A stretch of DNA of 64,000 nt from a virus (Duplodnaviria; Heunggongvirae; Uroviricota; Caudoviricetes): IMG/VR virus record IMGVR_UViG_3300031555_002904. One strand, 5' to 3'. This document shows, piece after piece, positions 46,555-63,115 of this stretch; positions within the stretch are counted from its first letter, which is position 1; every line of letters starts with the position of its first letter. The notes beneath the pieces were generated by a model. That model did not search any database. It was not told where the DNA came from and saw only the letters and a program-made list of their open reading frames with translations. A program made the position numbers and the translations under genes.

Positions 46555-46685
46555 GATCGGCTGGGCGAATCTATTCAATATGGGGAATGTAATTTTTAGA
46601 ATAATTACATTCCCCATTTTTTACGCATTTGATTTTTATAAAAAAATATGATATAATATATATGTAAAGAATGAAAGATAAATAT

Positions 46686-46760
46686 AGGGGAGTCGTCTAA
46701 CGGCTAGGACTACAGTCTCCAAAACTGTGTATTGGGGTTCGAATCCCTACTCCCCTGCCA
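46686..46760 (+). tRNA. tRNA-Trp(CCA)
   Basis: Cloverleaf, CCA end. Confidence 0.9.
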
Positions 46761-46761
46761 C

Positions 46762-46880
46762 CGGTAGTTAGTTTAAGGTAAAACCACCTCCGTGGATCGA
46801 GGAGGAAGTAATTGAACGAGTAGTCCTTTGTAGGGTGAAACACTCAATGAAAGATGTCGTTCGGAGCGACACTATCGCCA
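46762..46880 (+). ncRNA. Expanded tRNA-like RNA
   Basis: Acceptor CGGTAGT/ACTATCG plus CCA, D and T arms, enlarged middle region. Confidence 0.5.
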
Positions 46881-46948
46881 TTAAAAAGTCTTTCTTGATT
46901 TTTATAAAAAAATATGTTATAATATTTATGTAAGATAAAGGAAAGGAA

Positions 46949-47344
46949 ATGATAGCGATGGAAAAACGATATTACTTCGATAAACCAAAGCAAGTTGTTT
47001 TTGCCGACCCGGAAAATCCGGGAGATTGGCTGTGTGGTATCGCATACCGTGATGAGGTAATTTGCTCCTGTTGTGGTGGCGTATTCGAGATCGATGAAGT
47101 GGTGAAGACCGCTGCGGAAGACGGCGTCGTCAATCCTTTTTATCTGTATGAGGATTGGAGCGATCTGACCGATGATATTTGCGGCGGCGTGCTTCCGGAA
47201 GGATTACAGTTCAGCGACAGCGAAGAGAATCCTGGGATCGTGGAGACCGTAAAAGTCGTTGGTTACGAGCAGATGATGTTCGAAGACGAGATTGATAAGG
47301 TCGGCGCATTTTTGACTGAGGCTTCTGAAAATCCTGCTGAATAA
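46949..47344 (+). CDS. Hypothetical protein
   Basis: Promoter and RBS; GIAY..VICSCCG. Confidence 0.75.
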   Translation: MIAMEKRYYFDKPKQVVFADPENPGDWLCGIAYRDEVICSCCGGVFEIDEVVKTAAEDGVVNPFYLYEDWSDLTDDICGGVLPEGLQFSDSEENPGIVETVKVVGYEQMMFEDEIDKVGAFLTEASENPAE

Positions 47345-47456
47345 AAAAATCTTTCTTGATTTTTCAAAAAAAATATGTTATAATATATATGTAAGGTAAA
47401 GAAAGTGATATGCACGGATTGCTTTCTTTCTCCATACAACCTTTTCCATTGTAAAA

Positions 47457-47633
47457 AAGACGGTAACAGCAATTATGACGAGCTTGTGGTGCCGCAGGTC
47501 GTTGGTTCGAGTCCAACCGTCCCTCCCATCACCTGGCAAGGTGGCGTAGGTGAACTACTAAGGGGACCTTCGGGTCCCTGATATGAGGGGCGTAGCTCAG
47601 CTGGATAGAGCAGCGTATGTCAAATTCCGTCTT
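47457..47633 (+). tRNA. Circularly permuted tRNA-His(GTG) within an ACAGCAA element
   Basis: 3' half 47482-47528 precedes 5' half 47585-47615; joining gives a 78-nt tRNA with G-1:C73. Confidence 0.7.
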
Positions 47634-48015
47634 GGCAAAATAAAAATCAAGGGCAAAAGTGCTTATTTGATTTTTATAAAAAAATATGATATAATATATA
47701 TGTAAGGTAAAGGAAATGTGAAAACTCTCCTCAAGAGAAATGACTCGACATTCTGCTAATGCCTCGAGGGTGAAGTACTTGAGAATAAGATCCATTTCTG
47801 AGAAGCTCTCATCAAGTTGACGCAGGTAGCAGCTGGTCCGGGACTTCGATCATCTTCTCACCTTACATATGTGTTATATCAACACAGAAAGGTAGAATCT
47901 CGTATACCTTGGGTGGGACCAAAAGTACGACGGCAGATGCAAGCGAGAAGTATCCGGGTCTAGCCATGGACTCATGTAACCGGGGAATACCCATCCCAAA
48001 ATGGCAACTAAATAT

Positions 48016-48091
48016 TGCCCTGTAGCTCAGTCGGTAGAGCGCCAGACTGTTAATCTGGATGTCGTGGGTTCGAGCCCCACCGGGGCAGCCA
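48016..48091 (+). tRNA. tRNA-Asn(GTT)
   Basis: Cloverleaf, CCA. Confidence 0.92.
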
Positions 48092-48359
48092 AGGTCGAGT
48101 TTGTTGGAGTGACGAGAGACCTTAAACTAAACCAACCTCCAGAGGTTCCAGTTATGTAGCTTCTCTGTATAATATAAGCCATAACTATTGGAAAAGCAAA
48201 AATTCCAGCAATCAACAAATGTGCGGTTAGCTGACCCAAAGCTAAACACTACTCCTTTCATTCGCATGGAGTAGATGGTGGGTTATCATCTGAGAAAAAT
48301 CCCTTAAAAGCCACTGTGGTAGATGTGGGCCTGTGGCTGCCATAATCACAGTTCCATCT

Positions 48360-48442
48360 CCGGGTATGGTGGAATTGGTAGACACGTCGGATTTAGGTTC
48401 CGATGCTCCGCGTGATGGGTTCGAGTCCCTCTACCCGGACCA
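48360..48442 (+). tRNA. tRNA-Leu(TAG)
   Basis: Class II cloverleaf, CCA. Confidence 0.9.
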
Positions 48443-48656
48443 CAGGTTTGTAGGTTTTTCCTGTGCGAAGAAAAAAATCACTAAACAGCTCTACGGGCAT
48501 ATAGCACGAGCTTGAGTCAAAAAAATATGATGTATGCGGGTGGTTGGCAACTCCATCAGTACATAAATAAGTTGCATTTCCATATGGCTGTCCGGGTGGC
48601 AGGGGCAATGGCGCCCCGTAAGAAACAGGAGTTCAACTCTCCAGACGGTCGTCTAT

Positions 48657-48734
48657 GGGGTCATAGCTCCAACTGGAGAGAGCGACTGCCTTGCAAGCAG
48701 TAGGTTGTGGGTTCGAGTCCCACTGGCTCCACCA
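48657..48734 (+). tRNA. tRNA-Ala(TGC)
   Basis: G3:U70, CCA. Confidence 0.9.
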
Positions 48735-48737
48735 TAT

Positions 48738-48811
48738 GCTGATGTAGCTCAGTCGGGAGAGCGGTCCCTGTAGGAGGGGACAGGCCGGCGGTTCGAGTCC
48801 GTCCATTGGCT
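48738..48811 (+). pseudogene. Atypical tRNA with 8-nt anticodon loop, no CCA
   Basis: D and T arms intact; loop TGTAGGAG. Confidence 0.55.
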
Positions 48812-49275
48812 TATTACTAAAAGATCCGGTAGTTCAACAAGGCAAGAACGCTCGCAGTAATAGGAGTGATGCAGGTTCGATTCCTGTCCGGAAAAAGTCC
48901 TCGTACTCTAGGGGTTTCGAGAATCGGGGCCAGAGCCATACTAATAAGTGGCCTGTTACATACAAAGAAGCCCACTAAATAGGTCTTTTTGTGAGATGGT
49001 TTTTCCCTTACTGACTCCCGAGGTTTGACCGATAACTACAATCTCAAGACGAGAAAGGGAAGTTTGCTGGTAAAGCTAGAAAAACCAGACGATTGGAGAC
49101 TAGTCGGATTGAGTTGACGGCCTTGTGTGGGGCGCTAAGAATGCACGGGTGTATGATGGTGACAACGACCAGCCGTAAGTGAGAGTTGTTCGGTGAAGCT
49201 GCCGGAGAGGGAGTGCACGCCCTCGAAATGCGTTTTAGATCGAGGTTTCGCGGAGCCTCTAAAAAACCGCCATAT

Positions 49276-49362
49276 GGGGATATGGTGGAATCGGTAGACG
49301 CGCTAGACTCAAAATCTGGTGACCGAGAGGTCGTGTGGGTTCGAGTCCCACTATCCCCACCA
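49276..49362 (+). tRNA. tRNA-Leu(CAA)
   Basis: Cloverleaf, CCA. Confidence 0.92.
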
Positions 49363-49493
49363 AAAGGTAACTAAGGAAATTGAAAACGCAATCGTAAGTG
49401 CGTGAGTCCTAAGAGCGAGACACCGAAAGTAGGGCTTTATGCCGCGGCACACTGACACGACCAGTCCCTAGCCGATTAGTTACTTTTATATTT

Positions 49494-49580
49494 GCCTTTG
49501 TGATGGAATTGGTAGACATCCCAGACTAAGAATCTGGTATCCGCAAGGGTGTGCGAGTTCGAGTCTCGCCAGAGGCACCA
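49494..49580 (+). tRNA. tRNA-Leu(AAG)
   Basis: CCAGA-CTAAGAA-TCTGG, long variable arm, CCA. Confidence 0.88.
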
Positions 49581-49711
49581 TAAGAGGAATCCGAAAAATA
49601 AAGAATGTGGAGCGACAGTAGGCGACCTGTGAGTGTAGCTACCAATACCAGGCAACGCGCGTACGGCAGCAGGCAGATGCGGATTAGTTGCAACCCTCTT
49701 TTTTCACTCGC

Positions 49712-49781
49712 ACCAAGAGAGACGGAGGTTCAAATCCTTCCTTCGGCCGAGTAGTTTAGGCAGGTCCAGAACGCTCTTGGT
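49712..49781 (+). ncRNA. Permuted tRNA-like RNA (T arm before D arm)
   Basis: ACCAAGAG/CTCTTGGT stem enclosing T arm, closed acceptor hairpin and D arm. Confidence 0.55.
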
Positions 49782-49787
49782 TCATAT

Positions 49788-49874
49788 GCCCTTGTGATGG
49801 AACTGGTAGACTTCTTAGACTCAGAATCTAAGGTCCGAAAGGGCGTGCGGGTTCAAGTCCCGCCGAGGGCACCA
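49788..49874 (+). tRNA. tRNA-Leu(CAG)
   Basis: Cloverleaf, CCA. Confidence 0.9.
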
Positions 49875-50391
49875 TAGTATAATATCCGGTAGCTAACTCC
49901 TGGCTGGCCTATAAAAAACTGAGAGCTCGTAAAAAATGCATGAGGGTTCGGGAACGGTATTATACTAACCACCGTGGTATGCACGGCAAAAACCGAGGTA
50001 TAAGAGTGATATAAAGTGTGTGAGTAAAGCGGAAAGGCTCAATCACCGCCTAGCTGAGGGGCACACGCAGAGTTTGGTCCGGTTCTCTGATTTTTTATCA
50101 AAACAAGATGGCAGGAAAGTAGAGTCCTGGATATGCGGAGTTCGGTACGCCCCTACTCGCGACATATAAACCTGTGAAGCGCAAGCAGGACTTGTTGAGG
50201 TATGTGTGATTTATCACAGAGTGTGTGGCGAAAAATAAAACTAAACGCGCTCCGGACAACGGGGTGCCGGGCCTGGACGCTTGGCTTGCGGGGGAGGATC
50301 CCGTCGCACTCACCAATATAGTTGTGGGCGTATAAGACTCAAAACCCTCATCCTCCAATAATACTGCGCAGACTATTGGAGGGCAATATTT

Positions 50392-50470
50392 GGGCTGTGG
50401 GACTGCTTGGGGTGGTCACCTGTCTGGCAGACAGGACGGCAGATCGGTTCAAATCCGATACGGTCCACCA
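50392..50470 (+). tRNA. tRNA-Ala(GGC)
   Basis: G3:U70, CCA. Confidence 0.8.
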
Positions 50471-50529
50471 GGTCTATTTAGACCTCCTTTTCCAAACCAT
50501 TTAGACATCGACCGCAAGAAATTGTGATT

Positions 50530-50640
50530 CGCAGACTAGCTTAACTGGATATAGACCCGAGATCGCTTTACCGGTCAACAAAGGGTGAGAGCATCTCCCT
50601 TCAAAGGAGAAGATTGGGGTTCGAGTCCCCAGTCCGTGCC
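50530..50640 (+). tRNA. tRNA-like gene with TCA anticodon and ~36-nt D-loop insertion
   Basis: TCTCC-CTTCAAA-GGAGA arm, T arm, imperfect acceptor. Confidence 0.5.
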
Positions 50641-50738
50641 GTAGCAAAAATGGTGTCTAGTAAAAAAAATCTTCCTTGATTTTTATAAAAAAATATGTTA
50701 TAATATATATGTAAGATAAAGGAAGAGAGGTAATCAAA

Positions 50739-50846
50739 ATGAAAAAGATTGATGATTTCGATACTCAAATCCAATCCGATGAATTGGCAGAGATTATCAA
50801 CTACAATGACCAGTTTGAAGATCCTCGCTACCAAGACGAAGAGTAA
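50739..50846 (+). CDS. 35-aa acidic peptide
   Basis: Promoter and GAGG RBS; MKKIDDFDTQIQSDE... Confidence 0.55.
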   Translation: MKKIDDFDTQIQSDELAEIINYNDQFEDPRYQDEE

Positions 50847-50849
50847 TTT

Positions 50850-50926
50850 GGCCCCATCGTCTAATAGGTCAGTGACAACAGCCTTTCACGCTGTAAATGG
50901 GAGTTCGAGCCTCCCTGGGGTCACCA
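50850..50926 (+). tRNA. tRNA-Glu(TTC)
   Basis: Cloverleaf, CCA. Confidence 0.9.
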
Positions 50927-51551
50927 TTGAGGTTGCGGTTAGCCTGACTAACAACAGACCGGCAGGAGCGATTACCTGCACAATGAGTCGTGGGTTTCAG
51001 TGCATGGTCCTTATTATGCGCCGGGTGCGAAAACAATTATAAAGCAGACCCGTTAGAGCGATAATCGCGAGTATCGCCTGCATTCCCATCTGGGCTGGCT
51101 CCGCAACTGGAAAGAGGAGATTGACTATGAGATCGCTACTCATAGGACGGGTCCACCAAGGAGGATCGGGGATATTCCCCGTAGCTGGTTGTGTCAGCTG
51201 AAATCACAACTACCGGCAGGTTAAGGTAGAATCCTGCAGATATGGGACATCGTAAAAAGCTGGGTCCTCGTTCCCTTGTCCCGGACTTTGGGTAGCCAAC
51301 TGCCCTTTGACAAAAAGGCTTTAGATAGTAAAGTGGATAAGTTGGAATAGTCCATATTTCTTCTCCCCTCAAGCAAGAGGGCTACGTGGGTAGATACAAC
51401 AGTACCTAAGCGCAGAATTCCGGCTATAATGAAGTAGGAAGCCGTAGAAGATGAAGAAGCTGTCGAAAAACATTTTTATAGAGGGAATCGTGGGTTGAAA
51501 TCCCACCGGAGTCGCGCTCCGAGGACAGAAGACAAAGTCGCCCTCCTTTAT

Positions 51552-51627
51552 GGCCCCGTCGTCTAGCGGTCTAGGACGCGAGCCTCTCAAGCTCGAAACC
51601 GGAGTTCGATTCTCCGTGGGGTCACCA
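51552..51627 (+). tRNA. tRNA-Glu(CTC)
   Basis: Cloverleaf, CCA. Confidence 0.9.
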
Positions 51628-51905
51628 GCAGCCCTCTTGGGCGGCATTGATAAAAGCGTTAACATGGATTTGTAAGTTAAACTACCACCGGCAAAACAAT
51701 GTGCGTCATAGACAAACAGCGTTAGATATGTGGCTTAGTGGAAAACGCTATATAAAGAAGCAAAGTAAACTTACACTAAAAAGATACTGAAACGGGTCAG
51801 GTCCAATCGCCCGGCTAAGTAGGTGAGGTAAGTGAGGTTGGGTTTCCTACGCCTTTAAAGTGGTTCTGAAAAATGTATCCGCTTAGCCTTTAGTATCTTA
51901 CATAT

Positions 51906-51981
51906 AGCTTCGTGGAGCAGCGGAGTGCTCGCCAGTTTGTCACACTGGAGATCGCGGGTTCGATCCCCGTCGAAGCTGCCA
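51906..51981 (+). tRNA. tRNA-Asp(GTC)
   Basis: Cloverleaf, CCA. Confidence 0.88.
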
Positions 51982-52049
51982 ATACCTCCGTGGTATATAA
52001 CCCATACTGGGGCTTGGTGAGAGCCTTGCACCAATCTCACCACTTATAT

Positions 52050-52126
<77 letters not shown>

Positions 52127-52296
52127 TAAAGGTATGTTCCCGATACCTCGTAGCGGAAAAATCGGGCGTGGAAGAGGAGACGAAAGAATCGCTTTGTTTG
52201 GCAACGGTTTTTTGGTTATAAACTGTTGTAGGTACTCAATGTGTGCCTTAGCCGACGTACCGTGCTTACAAGGGCAGCTACCCAACATTTTCATAT

Positions 52297-52373
52297 CCCT
52301 ATGTAGCTCAGTTGGTCAGAGCGGCCGGTTCATACCCGGCAGGTCAGTGGTTCGAGCCCACTCAGAGGGACCA
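52297..52373 (+). tRNA. tRNA-Met/Ile2(CAT)
   Basis: Cloverleaf, CCA. Confidence 0.85.
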
Positions 52374-52637
52374 GAATAATTACAATGAGATACCGTGGGT
52401 TCTATGTTCTGTGGTGGGGCATAGACTAAGAGCGATGAGGCAGTAGAGAGCTGAAGTGGATCGCGACAATCTCTATACACACTTCTTCCAAAAGGCTGAC
52501 CACCGAGTAGGTATTTTTCCAATCAGCTGTAACGGAAAAATATTTGTAATTATTTACCAACCGCTGATTGCGGTTTTCATTTCCTTTCATGTGCGGTCGT
52601 GGGGGCTCCGACCGGAAAAATATTCCCCCTTGTATAT

Positions 52638-52714
52638 TGCAGAGTAGAGAAGAGGCCGATCTCGCTAGCCTCATAAGCTGGAGAACGGTGGTTCGAATCC
52701 ACCCTCTGCATCCA
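52638..52714 (+). tRNA. tRNA-Met(CAT)
   Basis: Cloverleaf, CCA. Confidence 0.85.
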
Positions 52715-52715
52715 T

Positions 52716-52792
52716 TGCGGGGTAGACAAGTGGCTAAGTCGCCAGCCTCATAAGCTGGAAATCGTGGGTTCGAGTCCCACCCACCGCAACCA
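52716..52792 (+). tRNA. tRNA-Met(CAT)
   Basis: Cloverleaf, CCA. Confidence 0.85.
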
Positions 52793-52830
52793 GGGTTGTG
52801 CATAGGCAACTCTCCTTTAGGTGATATATT

Positions 52831-52945
52831 TAGGCGCACACAGCAATTTTTCTTTTAGAAAAAATTTAGCTCATTTGGTAGAGCAATTGTCTGTTAAACA
52901 ATGTGTAGTGGGTTCAATTCCCTCAATCTTTTCTTTATGCGCCTA
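52831..52945 (+). ncRNA. ACAGCAA element enclosing degenerate tRNA-Asn(GTT) arms
   Basis: TAGGCGCA/TGCGCCTA stem, CACAGCAA, D/anticodon/T arms inside. Confidence 0.65.
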
Positions 52946-52951
52946 GTTTAT

Positions 52952-53027
52952 GCCCCGGTAGCTCAGTTGGTAGAGCGTAGGATTGAAGCTCCTAGCGTCG
53001 GCGGTTCGAACCCGTCCTGGGGCACCA
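52952..53027 (+). tRNA. tRNA-Phe(GAA)
   Basis: Cloverleaf, CCA. Confidence 0.92.
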
Positions 53028-53332
53028 TCAGTTGGATAGGAAACTGTTACAAAAACCCTATCACTTGGATTGGTAAACCTAATTTACCGAAAGACCCACA
53101 CCAGAGGATCCATACCACCCTTCATTTTGGTTTTCTGCCTTTGTTGTTTGTTTTCATATTGTTATGCCTCCTCATAATGTATAAAGCAGGTATGGCTGTG
53201 GGAAATGTACTCTTTCTATATATTCCGAAATATATAGAAACAAAAACTACCTTCGCGGGAGAGAGTTTTTACATCTAGGCTCGGTCGAGTTTGTTTTTTA
53301 CTCTCCCGCTTCTTGTTTATTGAATATTATTC

Positions 53333-53420
53333 GGAGCGGTGGGGTAATGGTATCCCAGAGGATTGCTAATCCTCCCTACCTGCGAGGGTAGTCTGGGTTC
53401 GAGTCCCGGTCGCTCCGCCA
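53333..53420 (+). tRNA. tRNA-Ser(GCT)
   Basis: Class II, G73, CCA. Confidence 0.88.
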
Positions 53421-53590
53421 AAATAAACGAAGTACAAGTTTATCAGTGATGTATCGTATAAGATGAGGAATACACCGAAAAAGAGGTCATATGCTTGAGT
53501 AGGAAATCTAGGACGCCTAAGAAGCCAACCTGGTACATTGCGTATAAGACATTTTGGAGACCACATAGGCCAAAGTCTCCGATCTTATAT

Positions 53591-53678
53591 GGAGGGGTAA
53601 GCATAATTGGCACTGCTCCGGTCTAGAAAACCGGTCACGGGCAACCGTGTGTGGGTTCGAGTCCCACCCCCTCCGCCA
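53591..53678 (+). tRNA. tRNA-Ser(AGA)
   Basis: CCGGT-CTAGAAA-ACCGG, class II, CCA. Confidence 0.88.
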
Positions 53679-53885
53679 GTATGCGGCCGATCACCGCTCG
53701 GTTTTTGGTAACTCCGTAGGCTTTGGTATGATGCGTTCGCCAAGGCATTGAAACCATCAATGGGGTTCGAAGGTTTTCCCCATAAGGGCAGAGTAACGAA
53801 CTGTTCCTAAAAGTCGAACACTCGTAACACTTGAGCAGTCGTTACCTCAATGCGGTTATTAGTTAGTAAACAAACCCTCTCCAAT

Positions 53886-53962
53886 GGCCCGATAGCTCAG
53901 TTGGTCAGAGCAGCTGATTAGTAATCAGCAGGTCGTCGGTTCGAATCCGACTCGGGCCTCCA
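53886..53962 (+). tRNA. tRNA-Thr(AGT)
   Basis: GCTGA-TTAGTAA-TCAGC, CCA. Confidence 0.9.
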
Positions 53963-54238
53963 GCGACTTCTTGAATGAAGTGAGCCGACTACAAGATAGG
54001 TTCGGCGCGACGTTGAAGCAATACATTGGACTGTTTTCAGTAGTGTTGTGGAGTCTAATCTAGGGTTGTGCGGTTTCCACAAGACAGAGTAGGAGAAATC
54101 TGAAAGAAAACGCTCATATGCAGTTGATGGTCCGAGTGGGTTCGAGCCCCACAAACTGCATCGAGTGCGGTATACACGCACAAAATCTATATAGAGTGTC
54201 ATAGTGAAAGAATTAGCTACTCAATCACTATGATATAT

Positions 54239-54315
54239 GCGGGATTAGCTCAGCTGGTTAGAGCATATGCCTTACAAGCATGGGGTCAGCGGTTCGAATC
54301 CGTTATCCCGCACCA
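54239..54315 (+). tRNA. tRNA-Val(TAC)
   Basis: Cloverleaf, CCA. Confidence 0.92.
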
Positions 54316-54450
54316 CTCTCCGTAGTTGGTTCCATTTGCCAACATAGATAAAAAGTTCCCACACTGTAGATGCCCGGAAATTTGGGTGGAGGTGCATATT
54401 GGGTGAGGCACAAGCGCACTGGACCTGCGCTGGCTACGGAGATACCATAT

Positions 54451-54526
54451 GCGGCTGTGGCTCAGCTGGTAGAGCATCTGATTGCCATTCAGAAGGTCGC
54501 GGGTTCGAACCCCGTCAGCCGCTCCA
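54451..54526 (+). tRNA. tRNA-Gly(GCC)
   Basis: Cloverleaf, U73, CCA. Confidence 0.92.
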
Positions 54527-54527
54527 T

Positions 54528-54604
54528 GTGAGTGTAGCTTAGTTGGTTAAAGCGCCAGATTGTGGCTCTGGAGATCGGCGGTTCAAGTCCGCTCACTCAC
54601 CCCA
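54528..54604 (+). tRNA. tRNA-His(GTG)
   Basis: Cloverleaf, C73; G-1 not encoded. Confidence 0.9.
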
Positions 54605-54607
54605 TAT

Positions 54608-54684
54608 TAGACAGACACAGCAAATTACTTTTTACACAAAACGCTTATATTGGGTTTAAGAAATGTTTAATGTAATTCTGTCTA
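54608..54684 (+). ncRNA. ACAGCAA element (short cargo)
   Basis: TAGACAGA/TCTGTCTA stem plus CACAGCAA. Confidence 0.6.
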
Positions 54685-54694
54685 GTTTTTTTAC

Positions 54695-54771
54695 GCCCCA
54701 GTAGCTCAGTTGGATAGAGCATGGGATTTCTAATCCCAGTGTCAGGGGTTCGAGTCCCTTCTGGGGTACCA
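54695..54771 (+). tRNA. tRNA-Arg(TCT)
   Basis: Cloverleaf, CCA. Confidence 0.92.
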
Positions 54772-54785
54772 ATAGATGAAAAGGG

Positions 54786-55022
54786 GTGAGTTTTGTGATT
54801 CAGCCTGTAAAGTTTGAAACTCAAGAGGATTTATTCCGTTTTAGCGAATTGGCAAGTAAGGAAGATTTCCCTATTTACATCAGTACCTCATATGGTCAGC
54901 TTGATGCTCGAAGCCTGCTTGGTTTATTTACCATTTTAGGCAAGGATGTCAATATCGTTGTTGGCGACCACGCTAATGCTGATAAGTTCTCTGCTTTTTT
55001 ACAGAAATACGCAAATTCCTAA
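54786..55022 (+). CDS. HPr/Crh-like protein
   Basis: F..LAS....I......LDARSLLGLF (Ser46-equivalent motif); lacks the His15 motif. Confidence 0.7.
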   Translation: MSFVIQPVKFETQEDLFRFSELASKEDFPIYISTSYGQLDARSLLGLFTILGKDVNIVVGDHANADKFSAFLQKYANS

Positions 55023-55043
55023 GTGCGGAAAACCGCACCATAT

Positions 55044-55120
55044 GCGGGTTTAGCTCAGTTGGATAGAGTAACTGGCTACGAACCAGTAGGCCGGGGGTTC
55101 GAGTCCCTCAACCCGTACCA
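55044..55120 (+). tRNA. tRNA-Arg(ACG)
   Basis: Cloverleaf, CCA. Confidence 0.92.
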
Positions 55121-55308
55121 TCGAGGTCTTTCGGAACCTCTGCGGATGACCGCTAATCCGAATACGGGGATGGGCCCAATAGGATCGGAATAAGGTGGGC
55201 TCGTTGTTATGGTTGAGGTGGCCCATAACGACAATTTGACAATTTTCAAAAAATTTGTTATAATATATATACAAGTAAAGGAACTATCGGATATAGTTTC
55301 TCATACTA

Positions 55309-55420
55309 AAGGCTCTTACAGCAAACTTCGCTTAGAAGAATAGTCTAATGCTAGGACATTTCCCTTCCACGGAAAAATCGCGGGTTGGATTCCCGCTTCT
55401 TTAGTAAAAGCTTGAGCCTT
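55309..55420 (+). ncRNA. ACAGCAA element enclosing degenerate tRNA-Gly(TCC)
   Basis: AAGGCTC/GAGCCTT stem; TTTCC-CTTCCAC-GGAAA arm. Confidence 0.65.
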
Positions 55421-55426
55421 GAATAA

Positions 55427-55503
55427 CGGGATATAGCTCAGATGGTTAGAGCGTACGACTGATAATCGTAAGGTCGGTGGTTCGATCCCACCTATCCCGA
55501 CCA
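55427..55503 (+). tRNA. tRNA-Ile(GAT)
   Basis: Cloverleaf, CCA. Confidence 0.92.
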
Positions 55504-55510
55504 ATTATAT

Positions 55511-55588
55511 CCGGGTGTAGCTCAGTTTGGCTAGAGCGCGTGATTTGGGATCACGAGGCCGAGAGTTCGAGTCTCTCCACTCGGACCA
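55511..55588 (+). tRNA. tRNA-Pro(TGG)
   Basis: Cloverleaf, CCA. Confidence 0.92.
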
Positions 55589-55703
55589 GCCTCAATGAGG
55601 TTTGCTATCGCTAAGTCATAGGGTTGTCCGACCCAATCGCATATACTAACAACTTCGGAGTTATGCCCGACCGGCAGGGAGTAGTTTTCAGCCTGCCATA
55701 TAT

Positions 55704-55781
55704 CTGGATGTAGCTCAGTTTGGCTAGAGCGCTACCTTGGGGTGGTAGAGGCCGAAGGTTCAAGTCCTTTCATTCAGACCA
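55704..55781 (+). tRNA. tRNA-Pro(GGG)
   Basis: Cloverleaf, CCA. Confidence 0.9.
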
Positions 55782-55850
55782 GATCATACTCAGATGGGTA
55801 GACATATGCTACCTTCGCCTACGGGACTCTGGGTTTTATATCAAATTACA

Positions 55851-55987
55851 TAGGCACACACAGCAATTTTATTCTATTAAAGAATAATTGTAGGTTCGAG
55901 TCCTACTCCGCCCACTCGGGCAGATTGAGAAATGGTAAACTCACTTGTCTCCAAAACAAGCATAAAAAAGTCTTTTAGATGTGCCTA
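55851..55987 (+). ncRNA. ACAGCAA element enclosing permuted tRNA-Trp(CCA)-like RNA opened at the variable loop
   Basis: Order is T arm, acceptor closed by ACTC loop, D arm, then CTTGT-CTCCAAA-ACAAG. Confidence 0.65.
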
Positions 55988-56065
55988 GTCCTTTATATCT
56001 TATTTGATTTTTATAAAAAAATATGATATAATATATCTATAAGATAAAGAAAGGAATGAAATTCA

Positions 56066-56371
56066 ATGCCTAAGTTAGTAGCGGCCGCAATCAAGTTTAA
56101 ACCACTTGATTCTGATTACTATCAGATTATGTGCGGCAAGCGCCATTGCAATATACTGGAATTGATGTATAAGCACGGCTTAGAATATCACAAGGTTGGC
56201 GCCATTCAAGGTTTCTTAACCGATGATGATCAGTTCGTTGATCGCTATGACGCCGCGCAGATGGCATTTCGTTCCGGTCAGATGTTAAAAGATTCTGACA
56301 TTTATAAGAAGATGTCTGAAGACCAAGAGCATATCAATGCTTATCCATTATATTCGGAGGATTTGTGGTGA
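56066..56371 (+). CDS. Conserved-looking phage hypothetical protein
   Basis: AAAIK...GKRH...QGFLT...FVDR..A...LYSEDLW. Confidence 0.8.
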   Translation: MPKLVAAAIKFKPLDSDYYQIMCGKRHCNILELMYKHGLEYHKVGAIQGFLTDDDQFVDRYDAAQMAFRSGQMLKDSDIYKKMSEDQEHINAYPLYSEDLW

Positions 56372-56577
56372 CTTACGAAGTCCAAATTCAAATGACTGAT
56401 GATCTCATTAAGGAGATCGGCAATGCCATCGCCGCCTACGGATTAGTTTTGAGTGCGGCCTGGACTGGTACACAAGTTCCTAAACAGTTTGAGGCATTCA
56501 AATATCTTCCCGATGAAGATTTGCATCGTCGGATGCAGTTACTCAAAGATTTCTATGAGGAGATTACCAATCAATGA
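56365..56577 (+). CDS. Hypothetical protein
   Basis: GGAGG RBS, coupling. Confidence 0.6.
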   Translation: MVTYEVQIQMTDDLIKEIGNAIAAYGLVLSAAWTGTQVPKQFEAFKYLPDEDLHRRMQLLKDFYEEITNQ

Positions 56578-56760
56578 GTGATACACATAAGTTCAAAATC
56601 GCACATTCCCAATACTTCGGTAGGGATATTATGTGCGTAAAGTACCATTCTGATGATGATTGGTATTTTTGTTTCGTAGATAAGCAGAAACAACCTACTT
56701 CTGGAATTTATAAAGCGCAGTCGAAGCATTCTTACTTCTTCTGGCACTCGTAATATAAAT

Positions 56761-56869
56761 AAGGCACACACAGCAAATATACATTTAGTATGTTATGGGT
56801 TCAAGTCCCATTTTTCGAGCCATTTTTTTCGAGAATCGCACAATAGGTAGTGCAACTAAAAGGTGCCTT
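56761..56869 (+). ncRNA. ACAGCAA element enclosing permuted tRNA-like RNA
   Basis: AAGGCAC/GTGCCTT stem; T arm plus acceptor-CCA precede 5' acceptor plus D arm. Confidence 0.65.
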
Positions 56870-56875
56870 GTATAT

Positions 56876-56951
56876 TGGGGGTTCTGAATAACGGTCAATT
56901 CGCCAGACTTTGACTCTGGAGATGGGAGTTCGATTCTCTCACCCCCAGCCA
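56876..56951 (+). tRNA. tRNA-Gln(TTG)
   Basis: Cloverleaf, G73, CCA. Confidence 0.88.
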
Positions 56952-56974
56952 CAGTTTCTTCATGCGTTCACAAC

Positions 56975-57035
56975 AGACGCAACCAGCAATCTTTTTTCTT
57001 CCCCGCTCATTTTAGAGGAATTTGAAAGTGCGTCT
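56975..57035 (+). ncRNA. ACAGCAA-family element (short; CCAGCAA variant)
   Basis: AGACGCA/TGCGTCT stem. Confidence 0.55.
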
Positions 57036-57128
57036 AGTATATATTCCCCTTTAGTCTATCCGATCTTTGGTCAGAAAAGATTTATGACTCACTCTTATTT
57101 TTCATATATAAATGAAAGGAGTGGTTAT

Positions 57129-57533
57129 ATGACTACTAAGGTTTGTACTAAATGTAAATTAGAATTGCCAATAGAAGAATTTCATTGGCGTAATAAGGCT
57201 GCTGGAACACGCAGATCAGAATGTAAAAAATGCCATAATGCAACAATGCGAAAAGATTATGATAAAAAACGAGAATAGGTTGATGCTATGAAATTTTCTT
57301 TTGGTGGTTGTTAGAAATGTGGCTATAATAAATGCATTGAAGCATTAGATTTTCATCATCGAAACCCCGATGAAAAAGAATATGATATTGCTCAAATGAT
57401 TAGAAATCATAGAACACAAGAAGCTATTGCCCAAGAGATGCAAAAATGTGTTATTTTATGTGCTAATTGTCATCGAGAATTTCATTTTTTAGAAAGAAAT
57501 AAGGGTATTTCTATTGATGAATATTTATTATAA
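57129..57533 (+). CDS. HNH endonuclease (134 aa, 2 TAG=Gln)
   Basis: GGC*KCGY.KC..ALDFHH...CVILCANCHRE; AAAGGAG RBS. Confidence 0.85.
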
Positions 57534-57539
57534 AAATAT

Positions 57540-57615
57540 TGGGGGTTAGTTCAATTGGCAGAGCGTCAGATTCTGACTCTGAAAGTTAAAGGTTCAAGTC
57601 CTTTACCCCCAGCCA
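57540..57615 (+). tRNA. tRNA-Gln(CTG)
   Basis: Cloverleaf, CCA. Confidence 0.9.
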
Positions 57616-57745
57616 AACTCATAGTGGGCTAAGGCGTTACGTCCCTAATCGGCTCCTGTCCCAGAAATGCGAAAAGACGTCGAACCTATGAGTTACCATA
57701 AGTAAGAGTGCTCTTGGACGGAACCAAGAGGTAAATCTCTGAAAA

Positions 57746-57829
57746 CCTCAAAGGTGGGCTTAGAAGTAGCAATCCTATAATGAGTGGTGCGGTGCGCGCG
57801 ACGGACCTTTGGTGTAATAACACATGAGG
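57746..57829 (+). ncRNA. 23S rRNA H43-H44 (L11-binding, GTPase centre) mimic
   Basis: GGTGGGCTTAGAAGTAGCAATCCTATAATGAGT...GTGTAATAACACA closed by CCTCA/TGAGG. Confidence 0.7.
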
Positions 57830-57982
57830 CTGGTTTGCGGTCAACCAGACCAAAAACCGAAATGTGATCGAGCGACCGGATGGAGAGGCAACGGGATACA
57901 ATGACTCTCCACCAAAAATCTTTTTTGACTTTTATAAAAAAATATGATATAATATTTATATAAAGTCAAAGGAGAAATTCAA

Positions 57983-58165
57983 ATGTTTATTTGTCCTATT
58001 TGTTTGCGGGAATTTGAAAAAGAAAGTGATATTGTGAAACATCTTGCCAGTTGTTGGGGAGAGAAGAATCCATATCGTAAATCCAAGCCCGCTCCTCGTA
58101 GCGAAGATGTCAATACGAGAGAGGATAATCAAGACATACTGGATTTCTTTGACTCATTCAAGTGA
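57983..58165 (+). CDS. C2H2/C2HC Zn-finger protein
   Basis: CPICLREF......KHLASC. Confidence 0.7.
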   Translation: MFICPICLREFEKESDIVKHLASCWGEKNPYRKSKPAPRSEDVNTREDNQDILDFFDSFK

Positions 58166-58168
58166 GGT

Positions 58169-58528
58169 GTGCATATGGAAGAAATTTCAATCAAAACTCA
58201 TTTGATTATCACTGATATTCACGATGAATATCATATGAATTGGTGTGGTAAGATCGCTGATGCTAAGCCACTTCTCCAAGATGGTTTACCCTTATTTGTT
58301 ATCATTGGTAGCCAAGGTCGATTAGAATTGAATACTATTGATATGAAACGCCTCGAACATTCTGCAAAGTTGTTGACGCGTCCAAAAGGTCGTTCCGCAG
58401 TAACTGTTGATACCTCTCGTATTTATATCAAAGAGGTTGACGGCAATGATTTTCTCTTGGGCGTTATGACGCATAAGAATATCAAAACCTTTGCTCCCAT
58501 GCACGATAAAGTTGGGTTTATGAAATAA
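58169..58528 (+). CDS. Hypothetical protein
   Basis: Operon context, RBS. Confidence 0.7.
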   Translation: MHMEEISIKTHLIITDIHDEYHMNWCGKIADAKPLLQDGLPLFVIIGSQGRLELNTIDMKRLEHSAKLLTRPKGRSAVTVDTSRIYIKEVDGNDFLLGVMTHKNIKTFAPMHDKVGFMK

Positions 58529-58577
58529 ACTTGATTTTATAAAAAAAATATGATATAATATATATGTAAGATAAAGA

Positions 58578-58644
58578 AAGGCAGACACAGCAATCATAAT
58601 CCATTTCTTGACGCTCCATTCTAGAAAACGATTAAACCTGCCTT
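58578..58644 (+). ncRNA. ACAGCAA element (short)
   Basis: AAGGCAG/CTGCCTT stem directly after a promoter. Confidence 0.6.
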
Positions 58645-58714
58645 GAAGCAACCGATAACTGATAACCCTCCGCTGAGTAAGCCTGGTGGTTGCGATTTCG
58701 ACTAATATCAGTTT

Positions 58715-59325
58715 GAACCTTGAAAAGTTTTGCACCTCGGTGAAGAACGAATACCATCGTGCCGAGATCCTCATCCTGCCCGTGGGCGCCAGGAGTCCGA
58801 AAAGCAATTTACTGACGATAGCCAGTAATAGGTAGATCTGCATACAGTGATGTGTGCGGGCCGCCCTCCGAACGGAGGGGCCTGGATGGAGAGGAGTGCA
58901 AAGATAATCGCATCTAAAGATACCGTCTTATCGCTCTCGCAATAGACGCCCCTGTGGGGAATAAGCTATGTTAGGGATTAGCTGGTGACTGTTTCAAACC
59001 ATAGTATACCAATAAGAGAGTCTGCGTTGATGTCCGAGTAATCGGGCTATAAGGTAAGGTCGGGGTACGAGTAGCCCTATCGCAATGACGAGAAGAAAGA
59101 AATTGCTGTTTAGTGTATTTGGGTAATAGCAAAAATTATCAAATAATTCTGAATGGCGGGTGAAAGTTACAGGTAAACAACCCTGTGTAGGACTTGGCTC
59201 CAGTAGGAGCTGGGGCAAGAAGTTTAAGGGTCGCTCCCTTGAGCTCAGACTTGTCTCCCTAGTGATCGAATATAGGTGAAGGTTATAGAGAGTATGTCGA
59301 AGGACAGCAAAACTTTTCAAAGTTC
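58715..59325 (+). ncRNA. Large structured ncRNA, ROOL/GOLLD-like (~610 nt)
   Basis: 18/19-bp terminal helix GAACCTTGAAAAGTTTTGC / GCAAAACTTTTCAAAGTTC, many internal hairpins, no credible ORF, inside the tRNA array. Confidence 0.6.
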
Positions 59326-59332
59326 TCAATAT

Positions 59333-59472
59333 GAGTGGACTGGCGGAATTGGTAGACGCACCGGACCGGAAACGAATAGTGTCTTGGTCTAAAGCCGCTA
59401 ACAGCAATTCAAATCGGACAGTAAATCCGGCGCCTTATTGGCTTCTTGGTTCAAGTCCAAGGTCCCTCACCA
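59333..59472 (+). tRNA. tRNA-Tyr(GTA)-like gene with a 53-nt ACAGCAA insert (intron-like)
   Basis: Removing 59364-59416 gives an 87-nt class II tRNA with CCGGA-CAGTAAA-TCCGG and ACCA. Confidence 0.65.
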
Positions 59473-59806
59473 CGGCCCAAGGTTATTGTTGTAGTAGAGT
59501 TAGCCGCTACTGCGTATAAATAACTTTTTTGTTGAACAAGGCTATAGCGAAAGTCCTCGCGTGACGTATTGAGCCTCCAAGGACCGGTGCCTGCACCGGA
59601 CCCGTTTTCACGATGCGTCGGGAAGTGTCTAAGCGATCTGGGTTCCACCCGGGACGAGCGCAGACCGGTAGGTAGTCAAAGCTGAGGTTAGACATATACT
59701 TTGACAAGGCATTATATATTTCGGCGGACACCGTGGCCGGCGTTGGATAATTTATTTGATTTGGTTTTGAAGTATAGTAGAAACTAAAAGAAAAGAGGTT
59801 TTTATT

Positions 59807-60214
59807 ATGTTATTTGAAACTAATCGTGATAAGGGTCGCGCTGGTATGGCGATAGCAATCGCTTATTTTGGAGCCAATGGATATACAGTAAATGTGCCTC
59901 TAAATGATACTCAATGGTATGATTTAGTTATTGAAAAAGACGGTGAGTTCAAAACCGTTCAATGTAAAGCAACTGGCAGTGCTGATAATGTAGTTTCTAT
60001 GAAGAGTGCGGGTGGCACAAAAGGTAGTGTTTATGATTCTGTACTAAATCATCCTGTTGATTATTTGTTCTGCTTAGATGGCGAAATGCATATGTATGTT
60101 ATTCCAGTGCAAGATTTGCGAGATTATGGAGTAAGTAAACAAATTTCTTTGCGTACTCAAAAATCTGCAAATGGACAAGGTTTCCAAACTTATCAATATA
60201 TGGTGTCTTTGTAA
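59807..60214 (+). CDS. PD-(D/E)XK homing-type endonuclease (group I intron-associated family)
   Basis: KGRAG...GYTV.VP.ND...YDLVIEK...TVQCK. Confidence 0.8.
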   Translation: MLFETNRDKGRAGMAIAIAYFGANGYTVNVPLNDTQWYDLVIEKDGEFKTVQCKATGSADNVVSMKSAGGTKGSVYDSVLNHPVDYLFCLDGEMHMYVIPVQDLRDYGVSKQISLRTQKSANGQGFQTYQYMVSL

Positions 60215-60222
60215 TACCATAT

Positions 60223-60308
60223 GGGTCAGTAGAGTGTAATTGGTACCACCCCCGACTGTAAATCGGGTTCGTATGACATTGTAGGTTCAAGTCCTACCTG
60301 GCCCACCA
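60223..60308 (+). tRNA. tRNA-Tyr(GTA)
   Basis: Class II cloverleaf, CCA. Confidence 0.88.
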
Positions 60309-61299: not shown

Positions 61300-61394
61300 A
61301 AGACCCTTCCTGCAATCTTTTTTCTTGGATAATAATTTTTACTTCAAATGAAAATTTAGCGGTTCGAATCCGCGTAATAAATGAAAAGGGTCTT
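61300..61394 (+). ncRNA. ACAGCAA-family element (CCTGCAA variant) with degenerate tRNA arms
   Basis: AAGACCCTT/AAGGGTCTT stem; T arm GCGG-TTCGAAT-CCGC. Confidence 0.55.
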
Positions 61395-61400
61395 GTTTAT

Positions 61401-61475
61401 GCCCCGATAGTTCAATCGGTAAAACAGTGGATTTGTAATCCTCCGTTCTCGGTTCAAGTCCGGGTCGGGGCTCCA
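61401..61475 (+). tRNA. tRNA-Thr(TGT)
   Basis: Cloverleaf, CCA. Confidence 0.85.
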
Positions 61476-61560
61476 ATGGTGAAAACTCGTTCTGGGAGCA
61501 AACTTACGAGTTACCCTTTTTGACACTCCCACAAATAAAAAAGAGTAAAAGGTGAAGAAA

Positions 61561-61914: not shown

Positions 61915-61951
61915 TTCGATAGAAGGGGCGCTATGCCCCTTCAATAGAGAT

Positions 61952-62939: not shown

Positions 62940-62977
62940 CTTTATAAAAAATTTTTGATATAATATAATATAAGATA

Positions 62978-63106
62978 AAGGCATAAACAGCAATTTATTG
63001 ATTAAGCCTGCCAAGCCGGAAGTCGTAGGTTCGAATCCTACCGCCCCTGCCATATAGGGGTCGTAGCTCAGATGGTAGAGCGCCGTTAAATATCAAATTG
63101 TGCCTT
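62978..63106 (+). tRNA. Circularly permuted tRNA-Gly(GCC)-like gene within an ACAGCAA element
   Basis: 3' half 63006-63052 (with CCA) precedes 5' half 63056-63085; join gives CCGGC-CTGCCAA-GCCGG. Confidence 0.7.
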
Positions 63107-63115
63107 GTGGAATAT

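What the first reader, a model, noticed from the sequence alone, without database searches (positions are those of the whole stretch)
47457..47633. Circularly permuted tRNA-His with intact identity elements
The 3' half (47482-47528, ending CCCA) lies upstream of the 5' half (47585-47615), separated by a 56-nt two-hairpin spacer. Joining ...AGAGCAGCG to GCTTGTGGTGCCGC... gives a perfect GCGGC/GCCGC stem, a TTGTGGT loop and an 8-bp acceptor with G-1:C73, the HisRS determinant. The ordinary tRNA-His at 54528 does not encode G-1. Permuted tRNA genes are established in some algae and an archaeon, where they use BHB splicing; I know of none in phages.
Basis: partly seen in the sequence, partly recalled or inferred. 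Interest (0 to 1): 0.9.

Follow-up and report, generated by a model that had tools for sequence, protein, structure and literature searches.

The report
Phage Y-RNA-like tRNA mimic, His-shaped
The "inside-out tRNA-His" is really in the sequence, but it is one copy of a widespread, uncatalogued phage family of tRNA-shaped small RNAs that share an ACAGCAA "handle" and travel with a Ro60-like ring protein, so it is most likely a Y-RNA-type tRNA mimic and not a tRNA gene that is spliced back together.

Summary
Observation confirmed. The 3' half (47482-47528, ending C73-CCA), a 56-nt spacer and the 5' half (47585-47615, starting G-1) are there. ARAGORN calls the rejoined 78-mer tRNA-His(GTG) and finds nothing on the native order.

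The element is closed by a 7-bp stem followed by ACAGCAA. About 11 RNAs in this tRNA array and dozens in other phages share this handle, and they carry many different "anticodons" and mostly sealed acceptor stems.

Records holding such RNAs carry a DUF2828 gene in 15 of 20 cases, against 0 of 50 controls, often directly beside the RNAs. The predicted fold of DUF2828 matches Ro60/TROVE over its full length. Rfam gives a sub-threshold YrlA hit.

The positional orthologue in the sister genome has a GGG loop, T73, CCG and a 9-nt closing loop. Two other GTG-loop members lack G-1:C73. There is no BHB motif, and the phage record encodes no EndA or RtcB.

Best reading: a YrlA-like tRNA mimic bound by a Ro60-like protein. 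This copy is possibly cut by RNase P to expose a CCA end.

Other follow-ups in this scan found the same family on other DNA, in at least 24 genomes. Two points remain open: this genome's ordinary tRNA-His lacks G-1, and 12 of 31 family members keep N73-CCA.

The parts
47356..47384 (+). Promoter-like site (TTGATT, 17 nt, TG-TATAAT) that starts this element's own transcription unit
   Evidence: It is one of 11-14 near-identical copies in the array. The next copy is at 47667-47695.
47398..47429 (+). Leader hairpin (AAAGAAAG ... CTTTCTTT) between the promoter and the handle
   Evidence: Read from the sequence. Similar leaders follow other copies of the promoter.
47457..47463 (+). Handle, 5' strand (AAGACGG)
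   Evidence: Pairs with 47627-47633. All 7 pairs covary across 26 relatives.
47466..47472 (+). ACAGCAA box, the conserved single-stranded signature of the family
   Evidence: It is invariant in alignment A2, though it was part of the search pattern. There are 11 plus-strand copies in the 18-kb array.
47476..47479 (+). Inner handle helix, 5' strand (TGAC), pairing with GTCA at 47619-47622
   Evidence: RNAfold. Specific to this copy; covariation not tested.
47482..47492 (+). Anticodon-arm look-alike: G30 C31, loop TTGTGGT (GTG), G39 C40
   Evidence: In 32 distinct loops of relatives, position 33 is T in 28, position 37 is a purine in 29, position 38 is A in 28, and 34-36 vary freely.
47493..47528 (+). 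Positions 41-43 (CGC), variable loop, T arm, acceptor 3' strand, C73 and CCA
47529..47584 (+). 56-nt spacer with three small hairpins that closes the acceptor end
   Evidence: It recurs at 94% over 53 nt in a different mimic (TCC loop, G73-CCA) of the sister genome, with a compensatory change in hairpin 3. Not found in other IMG/VR records.
47585..47615 (+). G-1, acceptor 5' strand, U8 A9, D arm, A26, positions 27-29 (GCG)
47616..47634 (+). Trailer, inner helix GTCA, handle 3' strand (CCGTCTT, 47627-47633) and the conserved G at 47634
62978..63106 (+). Paralogue in the same array: same handle and same break at 29/30, loop CTGCCAA, G73-CCA, acceptor sealed by a short loop
54528..54604 (+). Ordinary tRNA-His(GTG) with T at -1, one base after tRNA-Gly
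   Evidence: The sister-genome copy has G at -1.

Best explanation
The element is a Y-RNA-like small RNA of the YrlA type and a member of an uncatalogued phage family.

**Transcription (shown).** It is transcribed from its own promoter.

**Fold (shown).** Its two ends pair into a 7-bp stem that is followed by the single-stranded box ACAGCAA; this is the 'handle'. The rest folds into a full tRNA shape wired in rotated order. The handle leaves the body between positions 29 and 30 of the anticodon stem. The anticodon loop is kept on a 2-bp hairpin that can stack on the 3-bp stem 27-29/41-43. The acceptor end is closed by a spacer.

**Partner and function (inferred).** The handle is the docking site for the phage's Ro60-like ring protein (DUF2828). 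The tRNA-shaped body then presents a tRNA look-alike to some tRNA-binding factor of the host or phage, as a decoy or an adaptor.

**This copy (inferred).** It has an 8-bp acceptor with G-1:C73, an encoded CCA and a 56-nt structured spacer. It is therefore a plausible RNase P and 3'-trimming substrate, which would leave a two-piece RNA with a free CCA end held together by base pairing, as reported for Mycobacterium smegmatis YrlA. It is not spliced into a ribosome-competent tRNA-His.
For: **Family**
- There are 11 plus-strand 'stem + ACAGCAA' RNAs in the array, with covarying stems and varied cargo.
- A handle-plus-hairpin-plus-T-arm pattern finds 44 IMG/VR stretches.
- The permuted cloverleaf and the handle covary strongly on 26 members.
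- The loop keeps U33, R37 and A38 while 34-36 vary freely.

**Rfam**
- A YrlA hit spans 47475-47641 at 38.6 bits, E = 9e-7, below the gathering score of 69. No catalogued family reaches its threshold.

**Protein partner**
- DUF2828 is present in 15 of 20 records with such RNAs and in 5 of 5 near-complete ones, against 0 of 50 unrelated viral records.
- One to four handle RNAs lie directly upstream of the DUF2828 gene on the same strand in seven loci.
- In this record a DUF2828 gene lies downstream of each of the two tRNA arrays.
- The AlphaFold model of DUF2828 (pLDDT 76.7) has Ro60/TROVE structures as its top 13 PDB matches over the full length. These include the Ro60 of a Thermus phage, Xenopus and human Ro60, and Deinococcus Rsr.

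**Orthologue and identity**
- The sister-genome orthologue has a GGG loop, T73, CCG and a sealed acceptor.
- Discriminator and -1 bases do not track the triplet across members.

**Precedent**
- YrlA RNAs are Rsr-bound tRNA mimics of permuted topology, found in bacteria and phages. M. smegmatis YrlA is cut by RNase P and receives CCA in vivo (PMC4201824).
- A phage Ro60 binds phage Y-like RNAs (PMC12135203).
Against: - No binding or expression experiment exists for this RNA or this protein family.
- ACAGCAA differs from the GNCGAA box of YrlA, and the Pfam TROVE model does not match in this genome.
- In the half of the record that holds this element, the DUF2828 gene has lost its vWA domain in frame, and it lies about 22 kb from the element.
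- N73-CCA follows the 7-bp acceptor in 12 of 31 distinct members, where chance gives fewer than 1. A pure sealed decoy does not need it.
- Here the full His set (GTG, G-1:C73, CCA) coincides with an ordinary tRNA-His that lacks G-1. That fits a working His acceptor better than a coincidence would.
Confidence: 0.75

Rival explanations
1. **Handle-tethered, two-piece tRNA-His mimic that is charged.** RNase P cuts before G-1 and exonucleases trim back to CCA. The two pieces stay paired through the acceptor, the 27-29/41-43 stem and the handle, and HisRS charges the RNA. The charged RNA acts off the ribosome, for example as a HisRS or sensor decoy, or it brings the Ro60-like protein to tRNA-handling enzymes. 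This refines the best explanation; it does not contradict it.
For: - G-1:C73, a 7-bp acceptor and an encoded CCA are followed by a long spacer that leaves room for RNase P.
- The same spacer follows G73-CCA in another mimic of the sister genome and shows a compensatory change.
- N73-CCA is enriched in the family, in 12 of 31 members.
- M. smegmatis YrlA is cut by RNase P and gains CCA in vivo.
- The ordinary tRNA-His lacks G-1.
Against: - Discriminator bases do not match the triplets in most CCA-bearing members. G73 goes with Gly-, His- and Trp-like loops, and A73 with Ser- and His-like loops.
- Most members are sealed and cannot be charged.
- An RNA-library contig (X19) at 100% identity runs from the handle through CCA into the spacer in genomic order. 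It is weak, being one contig that could be DNA carry-over.
Confidence: 0.12
2. **Genuine permuted tRNA-His gene.** The handle is cut out, positions 29 and 30 are ligated (a circular intermediate or direct joining), the spacer is removed by RNase P and 3' processing, and the product decodes His codons. It would make up for the ordinary tRNA-His that lacks G-1.
For: - The rejoined 78-mer is a textbook tRNA-His for ARAGORN.
- The full bacterial His identity set is present, and the ordinary tRNA-His has T at -1 whereas the sister genome's copy has G at -1.
- The anticodon loop shape is conserved in the family.
Against: - There is no BHB motif, and the phage has no EndA and no RtcB. Bacteria are not known to have the splicing endonuclease (established knowledge).
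- The same handle encloses non-permuted tRNA look-alikes and non-tRNA cargo, where excision and ligation would make no sense.
- The orthologue has a Pro-like GGG loop with no Pro identity and a sealed acceptor.
- Other GTG members lack G-1:C73.
- No back-joint from 47615 to 47482 was listed in two RNA and two DNA runs. These were contigs only, so this is not a real test.
Confidence: 0.06
3. **Evolutionary by-product.** The element is a chimera made by gene conversion between paralogous mimics, and its His-like features are accidental and unselected.
For: - The handle is identical to that of the sister orthologue, while the body and spacer resemble the Gly-like paralogues.
- With dozens of members and 64 triplets, one apparent identity match is expected by chance.
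Against: - All helices are intact, with compensatory differences from the paralogues.
- It has its own promoter.
- DNA contigs of two runs from different studies (X1, X9) that span the element show no change inside it.
Confidence: 0.05

Closest known systems
YrlA-type bacterial and phage Y RNAs bound by Rsr/Ro60 (Rfam RF02553; Chen et al. 2014, PMC4201824)
   Same: - The 5' and 3' ends pair into a terminal stem with a conserved box on the 5' strand.
- The inner domain is a tRNA look-alike in rotated order (T arm, closed acceptor stem, D arm).
- The gene travels with a Ro60-shaped protein gene and occurs in phages.
- One member (M. smegmatis) is cut by RNase P and gains CCA.
   Different: - The box is ACAGCAA, not GNCGAA.
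- The protein partner is DUF2828, which the TROVE profile does not detect.
- The Rfam score is 38.6 against a threshold of 69.
- A complete anticodon-loop look-alike is retained on a 2-bp hairpin, with the handle leaving at 29/30. In YrlA the Ro-binding stem replaces the anticodon arm.
- There are up to about 14 copies per genome, embedded in a tRNA array, instead of 1-2 beside rsr.
Circularly permuted tRNA genes of Cyanidioschyzon merolae and other algae, and of Thermofilum pendens
   Same: The 3' half lies upstream of the 5' half in one unit, with CCA and the 5' end linked by an intervening sequence. The rejoined sequence is a canonical cloverleaf.
   Different: - There is no BHB at the termini and no splicing endonuclease.
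- The junction is closed by a conserved protein-type handle that non-tRNA cargo also shares.
- The orthologue does not keep the isoacceptor.
- Most family members have sealed acceptor ends.
Thermus phage phiLo Ro60 with Yrl1/Yrl2 (PMC12135203; PDB 9KOP, 9L5Y)
   Same: It is a phage-encoded Ro60-fold ring protein with phage-encoded partner RNAs just upstream of its gene. It is the best structural match of the DUF2828 model.
   Different: - Its RNAs carry the CGAA box and are not described as carrying a full tRNA body.
- Sequence identity to DUF2828 is about 16% in the structural alignment.
Class I RNAs of dictyostelid social amoebae (PMC7919456)
   Same: A short terminal stem is followed directly by a conserved 11-nt box on the 5' side, with variable cargo. 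The invariant positions reported (T3, C6, C9, A10, A11) fit GGTAACAGCAA here.
   Different: - They are eukaryotic, 42-65 nt long and have no tRNA body.
- The box letters are given only in a figure, so identity is not verified here.
- This lead came from earlier notes of this scan.

Membership tests
Permuted tRNA genes (algal/archaeal type) | The 3' half lies upstream of the 5' half on one strand, and the rejoined RNA is a canonical cloverleaf | tested here: met
   ARAGORN calls tRNA-His(GTG) on the rejoined 78-mer and finds none on the native order.
Permuted tRNA genes (algal/archaeal type) | A bulge-helix-bulge motif is formed by leader and trailer at the junction | tested here: not met
   over all registers the best central helix has 2 of 4 pairs. 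Instead there is a 7-bp stem, a 7-nt ACAGCAA bulge and a 4-bp helix.
Permuted tRNA genes (algal/archaeal type) | Splicing endonuclease and RtcB-type ligase are available | tested here: inconclusive
   The phage record has neither. The host is unknown, and a host RtcB cannot be excluded.
Permuted tRNA genes (algal/archaeal type) | Orthologues keep the same isoacceptor and a processable acceptor end | tested here: not met
   the sister orthologue has a GGG loop, T73, CCG and a 9-nt closing loop.
Permuted tRNA genes (algal/archaeal type) | A mature, ligated, aminoacylated tRNA exists | not testable with these tools
   Only contigs of RNA runs were available.
YrlA / Y RNA (RF02553) | Reaches the Rfam gathering score | tested here: not met
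   38.6 bits against 69, with E = 9e-7. The tRNA-like core aligns, but the Ro-binding stem columns do not.
YrlA / Y RNA (RF02553) | Terminal stem made by the 5' and 3' ends, with the tRNA-like T, acceptor and D domain in rotated order | tested here: met
YrlA / Y RNA (RF02553) | GNCGAA(N0-1)G box near the 5' end | tested here: not met
   The box here is ACAGCAA. The YrlA motif is as described in PMC4201824.
YrlA / Y RNA (RF02553) | Encoded beside a Ro60 orthologue | tested here: inconclusive
   The Pfam TROVE model finds nothing. DUF2828, with a predicted Ro60 fold, co-occurs in 15 of 20 records against 0 of 50 controls and often abuts the RNAs. Here it lies about 22 kb downstream, after the array.
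YrlA / Y RNA (RF02553) | Bound by the Ro60 protein | not testable with these tools
   Needs EMSA or RIP.
ACAGCAA-handle RNAs with DUF2828 (uncatalogued; defined in this scan) | A covarying 7-9-bp terminal stem, ACAGCAA 0-2 nt after its 5' strand, and G after its 3' strand | tested here: met
ACAGCAA-handle RNAs with DUF2828 (uncatalogued; defined in this scan) | A DUF2828 gene in the same genome | tested here: met
   The copy next to this array has an in-frame loss of the vWA domain.

The most novel reading that the evidence does not exclude
The CCA-bearing minority of these mimics, this one above all, are opened by RNase P and trimmed to CCA. The result is a tRNA in two pieces that stays clamped by the handle and is charged, here with histidine through G-1:C73. 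A Ro60-like particle would then carry an aminoacylated tRNA look-alike. Alternatively, after removal of the handle by an unknown phage or host activity, the RNA would supply the His acceptor that the phage's own G-1-less tRNA-His cannot. Either way, this would be the first permuted or split tRNA working in a bacterial virus.
Probability: 0.12. Interest if true: 0.9.

Novelty: new variant of a known kind. Interest (0 to 1): 0.6.

Why it matters
Ro60 and its Y RNAs are an old puzzle in RNA quality control and autoimmunity, and the bacterial YrlA tRNA mimics still have no known target. This work shows the following:
- A second, sequence-unrelated-looking Ro60-fold family (DUF2828) in large gut and rumen phages has its own partner RNAs.
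- These RNAs are multiplied up to about 14-fold inside tRNA arrays.
- One subfamily displays a complete tRNA, including a correctly shaped anticodon loop with freely varying triplets.

This points to a function that reads anticodon loops, such as decoys or adaptors for anticodon nucleases, modification enzymes or synthetases, in the phage-host conflict over tRNAs.

There is also a practical consequence. tRNA finders miss the permuted copies and count the non-permuted, CCA-less copies as tRNAs, so phage tRNA inventories are distorted.

This particular copy is the best candidate for testing whether such mimics are opened and charged.

Tried and rejected
- **RNA evidence.** Only Logan contigs were available for two metatranscriptome runs (X19, X20) and two DNA runs. 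No back-joint from 47615 to 47482 was listed. One X19 contig (47465-47556, 100% identity) follows the genomic order across CCA into the spacer. Contigs cannot show ends, strand or rare joined forms, and DNA carry-over is possible, so this gives no verdict either way.
- **Spacer.** An exact 26-nt scan of IMG/VR found nothing. The spacer's role stays unknown, and no Rfam ribozyme or other family matches it at E up to 10.
- **Loose GTG-loop pattern.** It returned more than 117 mostly chance stretches. After filtering for a T arm, only L124 was real. I reused the chance hits as a control set.
- **DUF2828 against PDB by sequence.** No hit. Only the fold search showed the Ro60 likeness.
- **Pfam TROVE, RtcB and tRNA_int_endo in the genome.** None found.
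- **BHB search.** Negative.
- **Literature.** Searches for 'permuted tRNA' with 'phage', and for DUF2828, gave nothing on this system.
- **Bias to note.** The invariance of GC/GC/CCG around the loop in alignment A2 comes from the search pattern and is not evidence. The five copies in this record, found by the handle alone, do share it.

Full report
**What is there.** The window is the minus strand of G000:C1:205292-269291, part of a 402,311-bp IMG/VR virus record. From about 46.6 kb onward it holds a plus-strand array of 38 ARAGORN tRNA calls, a ROOL RNA and a drum RNA.

At 47482-47528 lies a perfect tRNA 3' part. It runs from position 30 through the loop TTGTGGT, the variable loop, the T arm and the acceptor 3' strand to C73 and CCA. 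After 56 nt comes the 5' part (47585-47615): G-1, the acceptor 5' strand, U8 A9, the D arm and positions 26-29.

ARAGORN calls the rejoined 78-mer tRNA-His(GTG), with one G-U in the acceptor, and finds nothing on the native order. The ordinary tRNA-His at 54528 has T at -1 and sits one base after tRNA-Gly.

**The element is not alone.** Its ends pair as AAGACGG (47457-47463) with CCGTCTT (47627-47633), and the 5' strand is followed by ACAGCAA. The same arrangement occurs 11 times on the plus strand of the 18-kb array: a 7-9-bp stem whose letters covary, ACAGCAA or a near variant 0-2 nt later, and a G after the 3' strand.

The cargo differs between copies:
- another permuted tRNA look-alike (62978-63106, loop CTGCCAA, acceptor sealed by a short loop after G73-CCA);
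- non-permuted tRNA look-alikes without CCA (52831-52945 and 55309-55420, which ARAGORN and Rfam count as tRNA-Asn and tRNA-Gly);
- a T/acceptor/D body with a different hairpin (56761-56869);
- short inserts with no tRNA features.

The unit has its own promoter-like site (47356-47384), one of 11-14 near-identical copies in the array.

**An internal orthologue.** The record consists of two collinear halves of about 201 kb at about 79% nucleotide identity. Each half has the same tRNA array followed by a DUF2828 gene. It looks like two related phages joined head to tail.

The positional orthologue of the element in the other half (C1:17109-17238, minus strand) has the identical handle and box and the same break at 29/30. 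Its body differs by compensatory changes in every helix. Its loop is TTGGGGT, its discriminator is T, CCG replaces CCA, and a 9-nt loop seals the acceptor.

The 56-nt spacer recurs in that half inside a different mimic (loop CTTCCAA, G73-CCA), with a compensatory change in its third hairpin. The ordinary tRNA-His of that half does have G at -1.

**Relatives elsewhere.** A pattern made of the box, a 2-bp hairpin with a 7-nt loop, CCG and the T arm finds 44 stretches in IMG/VR.

In 32 distinct loops, position 33 is T in 28, position 37 is a purine in 29 and position 38 is A in 28, while 34-36 take about 20 different triplets. The loop therefore has the shape of an anticodon loop but no fixed anticodon.

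Most acceptor stems are sealed by 1-14 nt without CCA. Even so, 12 of 31 distinct members keep N73-CCA right after the 7-bp stem, where chance gives fewer than one. Discriminator and -1 bases do not follow the triplet:
- The two other GTG members have G73 (L059) and A73 (L124), with T at -1.
- A G-1:C73 eighth pair also occurs with a TCT loop (L009).

On an alignment of 26 members the proposed structure has 94.9% of cells paired, against 72.3% in shuffles and 39-48% when slid. Double changes occur in 7 of 7 handle pairs, 7 of 7 acceptor pairs, 3 of 5 T-arm pairs and 3 of 4 D-arm pairs. The invariance of the GC/GC/CCG letters comes from the search pattern and is not counted as evidence.

**The protein partner.** DUF2828 (PF11443) is present in 15 of 20 records that hold such RNAs and in all 5 that are at least 90% complete. 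It is present in none of 50 unrelated viral records, which were chance hits of a loose pattern; that set includes 13 near-complete records but is shorter on average.

In seven loci, one to four handle RNAs lie directly upstream of the DUF2828 gene on the same strand. The protein also matches DUF7788 and, weakly, a vWA domain.

An AlphaFold model from ten homologues (pLDDT 76.7, pTM 0.66) has Ro60/TROVE structures as its 13 best PDB matches over the whole length, with E from 4e-7 to 3e-4 and TM 0.4-0.59. They include the Ro60 of Thermus phage phiLo, Xenopus and human Ro60 and Deinococcus Rsr. Sequence methods do not see this relationship.

**Comparison with what is known.** Rfam gives a sub-threshold YrlA match across the element: 38.6 bits against a gathering score of 69, E = 9e-7.

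- YrlA RNAs are Rsr/Ro60-bound tRNA mimics of just this rotated topology. They occur in more than 250 bacteria and phages, and the M. smegmatis YrlA is cut by RNase P and receives CCA in vivo (PMC4201824).
- A phage Ro60 binds phage Y-like RNAs encoded upstream of its gene (PMC12135203).
- Jumbo-phage ROT/TROVE proteins with a tRNA-like partner have been noted (PMC7824862).

Against the algal and archaeal permuted tRNA genes, the defining processing features fail. No bulge-helix-bulge can be drawn, and the record has no EndA or RtcB.

**Verdict on mechanism.**
- *Shown:* the fold, the family, the synteny with DUF2828 and the Ro60-like predicted fold.
- *Inferred:* the handle docks the Ro60-like protein, and the tRNA-shaped body acts as a decoy or adaptor.
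- *Open:* why a large minority keep CCA, what the spacer does, and whether this copy is opened and charged. It has G-1:C73, CCA and room for RNase P, and it sits in a genome whose ordinary tRNA-His lacks G-1.

I put 0.75 on the Y-like mimic reading. About 0.12 goes to the refinement that it is cut and charged, 0.06 to a true permuted tRNA-His, and 0.05 to an unselected chimera.

**Earlier notes.** Earlier notes of this scan report the same handle-plus-DUF2828 pairing in at least 24 other genomes. I reached the same reading from my own tests on this window. Those notes also point to the Class I RNAs of social amoebae. The published description of their 11-nt box fits the letters here, but I could not verify the box sequence itself.

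Noticed in passing
G000:C1 whole record (window = C1:205292-269291, minus strand): The 402-kb record is two collinear halves of about 201 kb at about 79% nt identity, each with the same tRNA array and a DUF2828 gene. It is probably two related phages joined in assembly and not one genome.
   Followed up: partly
G000:C1:198791-199741 (minus), about 5.6 kb past the window's end: The DUF2828 gene beside this array encodes 316 aa. It is 90% identical to the sister copy but has lost about 209 aa in frame, the vWA/DUF7788 domain. A GmrSD-HNH nuclease gene lies between it and the array.
   Followed up: partly
window 54451-54604: The ordinary tRNA-His(GTG) has T at -1 and starts one base after the CCA of tRNA-Gly(GCC). 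The sister genome has a 115-nt gap and G at -1. Without G-1 a bacterial HisRS should charge it poorly.
   Followed up: partly
window 52831-52945 and 55309-55420: Two 'tRNAs' counted by ARAGORN and Rfam (Asn GTT, Gly TCC) lie inside ACAGCAA handles, lack CCA and have extended acceptor helices. They are probably mimics, so the tRNA count of the array is inflated.
   Followed up: partly
window 10000-26000, especially 15332-18779 (+): There are no long ORFs under code 11, and the plus strand shows strong A-over-T skew. With TGA read as sense, three abutting plus-strand ORFs appear, and one matches NT5C just above the Pfam cut-off (26.5 bits against 24.8). TAG is rare on this strand.
   Followed up: partly
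window 63116-63265: Two tandem tRNAs with anticodon CTA (amber suppressors, labelled Pyl by ARAGORN). The pair is also present in the sister half.
   Followed up: no
window 58712-59325 and 54008-54118: A full-length ROOL RNA (327.8 bits) and a drum RNA (78.1 bits) lie inside the tRNA array, with ACAGCAA boxes at 58587 and 59304.
   Followed up: no
window 46629-63902: A promoter cassette, TTGATTTTTATAAAAAAATATGATATAAT, is repeated 11-14 times. It cuts the array into many short transcription units and is highly multiplied in rumen metagenome contigs.
   Followed up: partly
window 47529-47573: An 822-nt contig of a bovine metatranscriptome run (X20) matches only the spacer, with 2 differences. 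The spacer sequence therefore also exists in another context in rumen samples.
   Followed up: no
L005-L060 (IMG/VR loci): N73-CCA directly follows the 7-bp acceptor stem in 12 of 31 distinct sealed mimics, in several unrelated lineages. That is far above chance and is not explained by a pure decoy model.
   Followed up: partly
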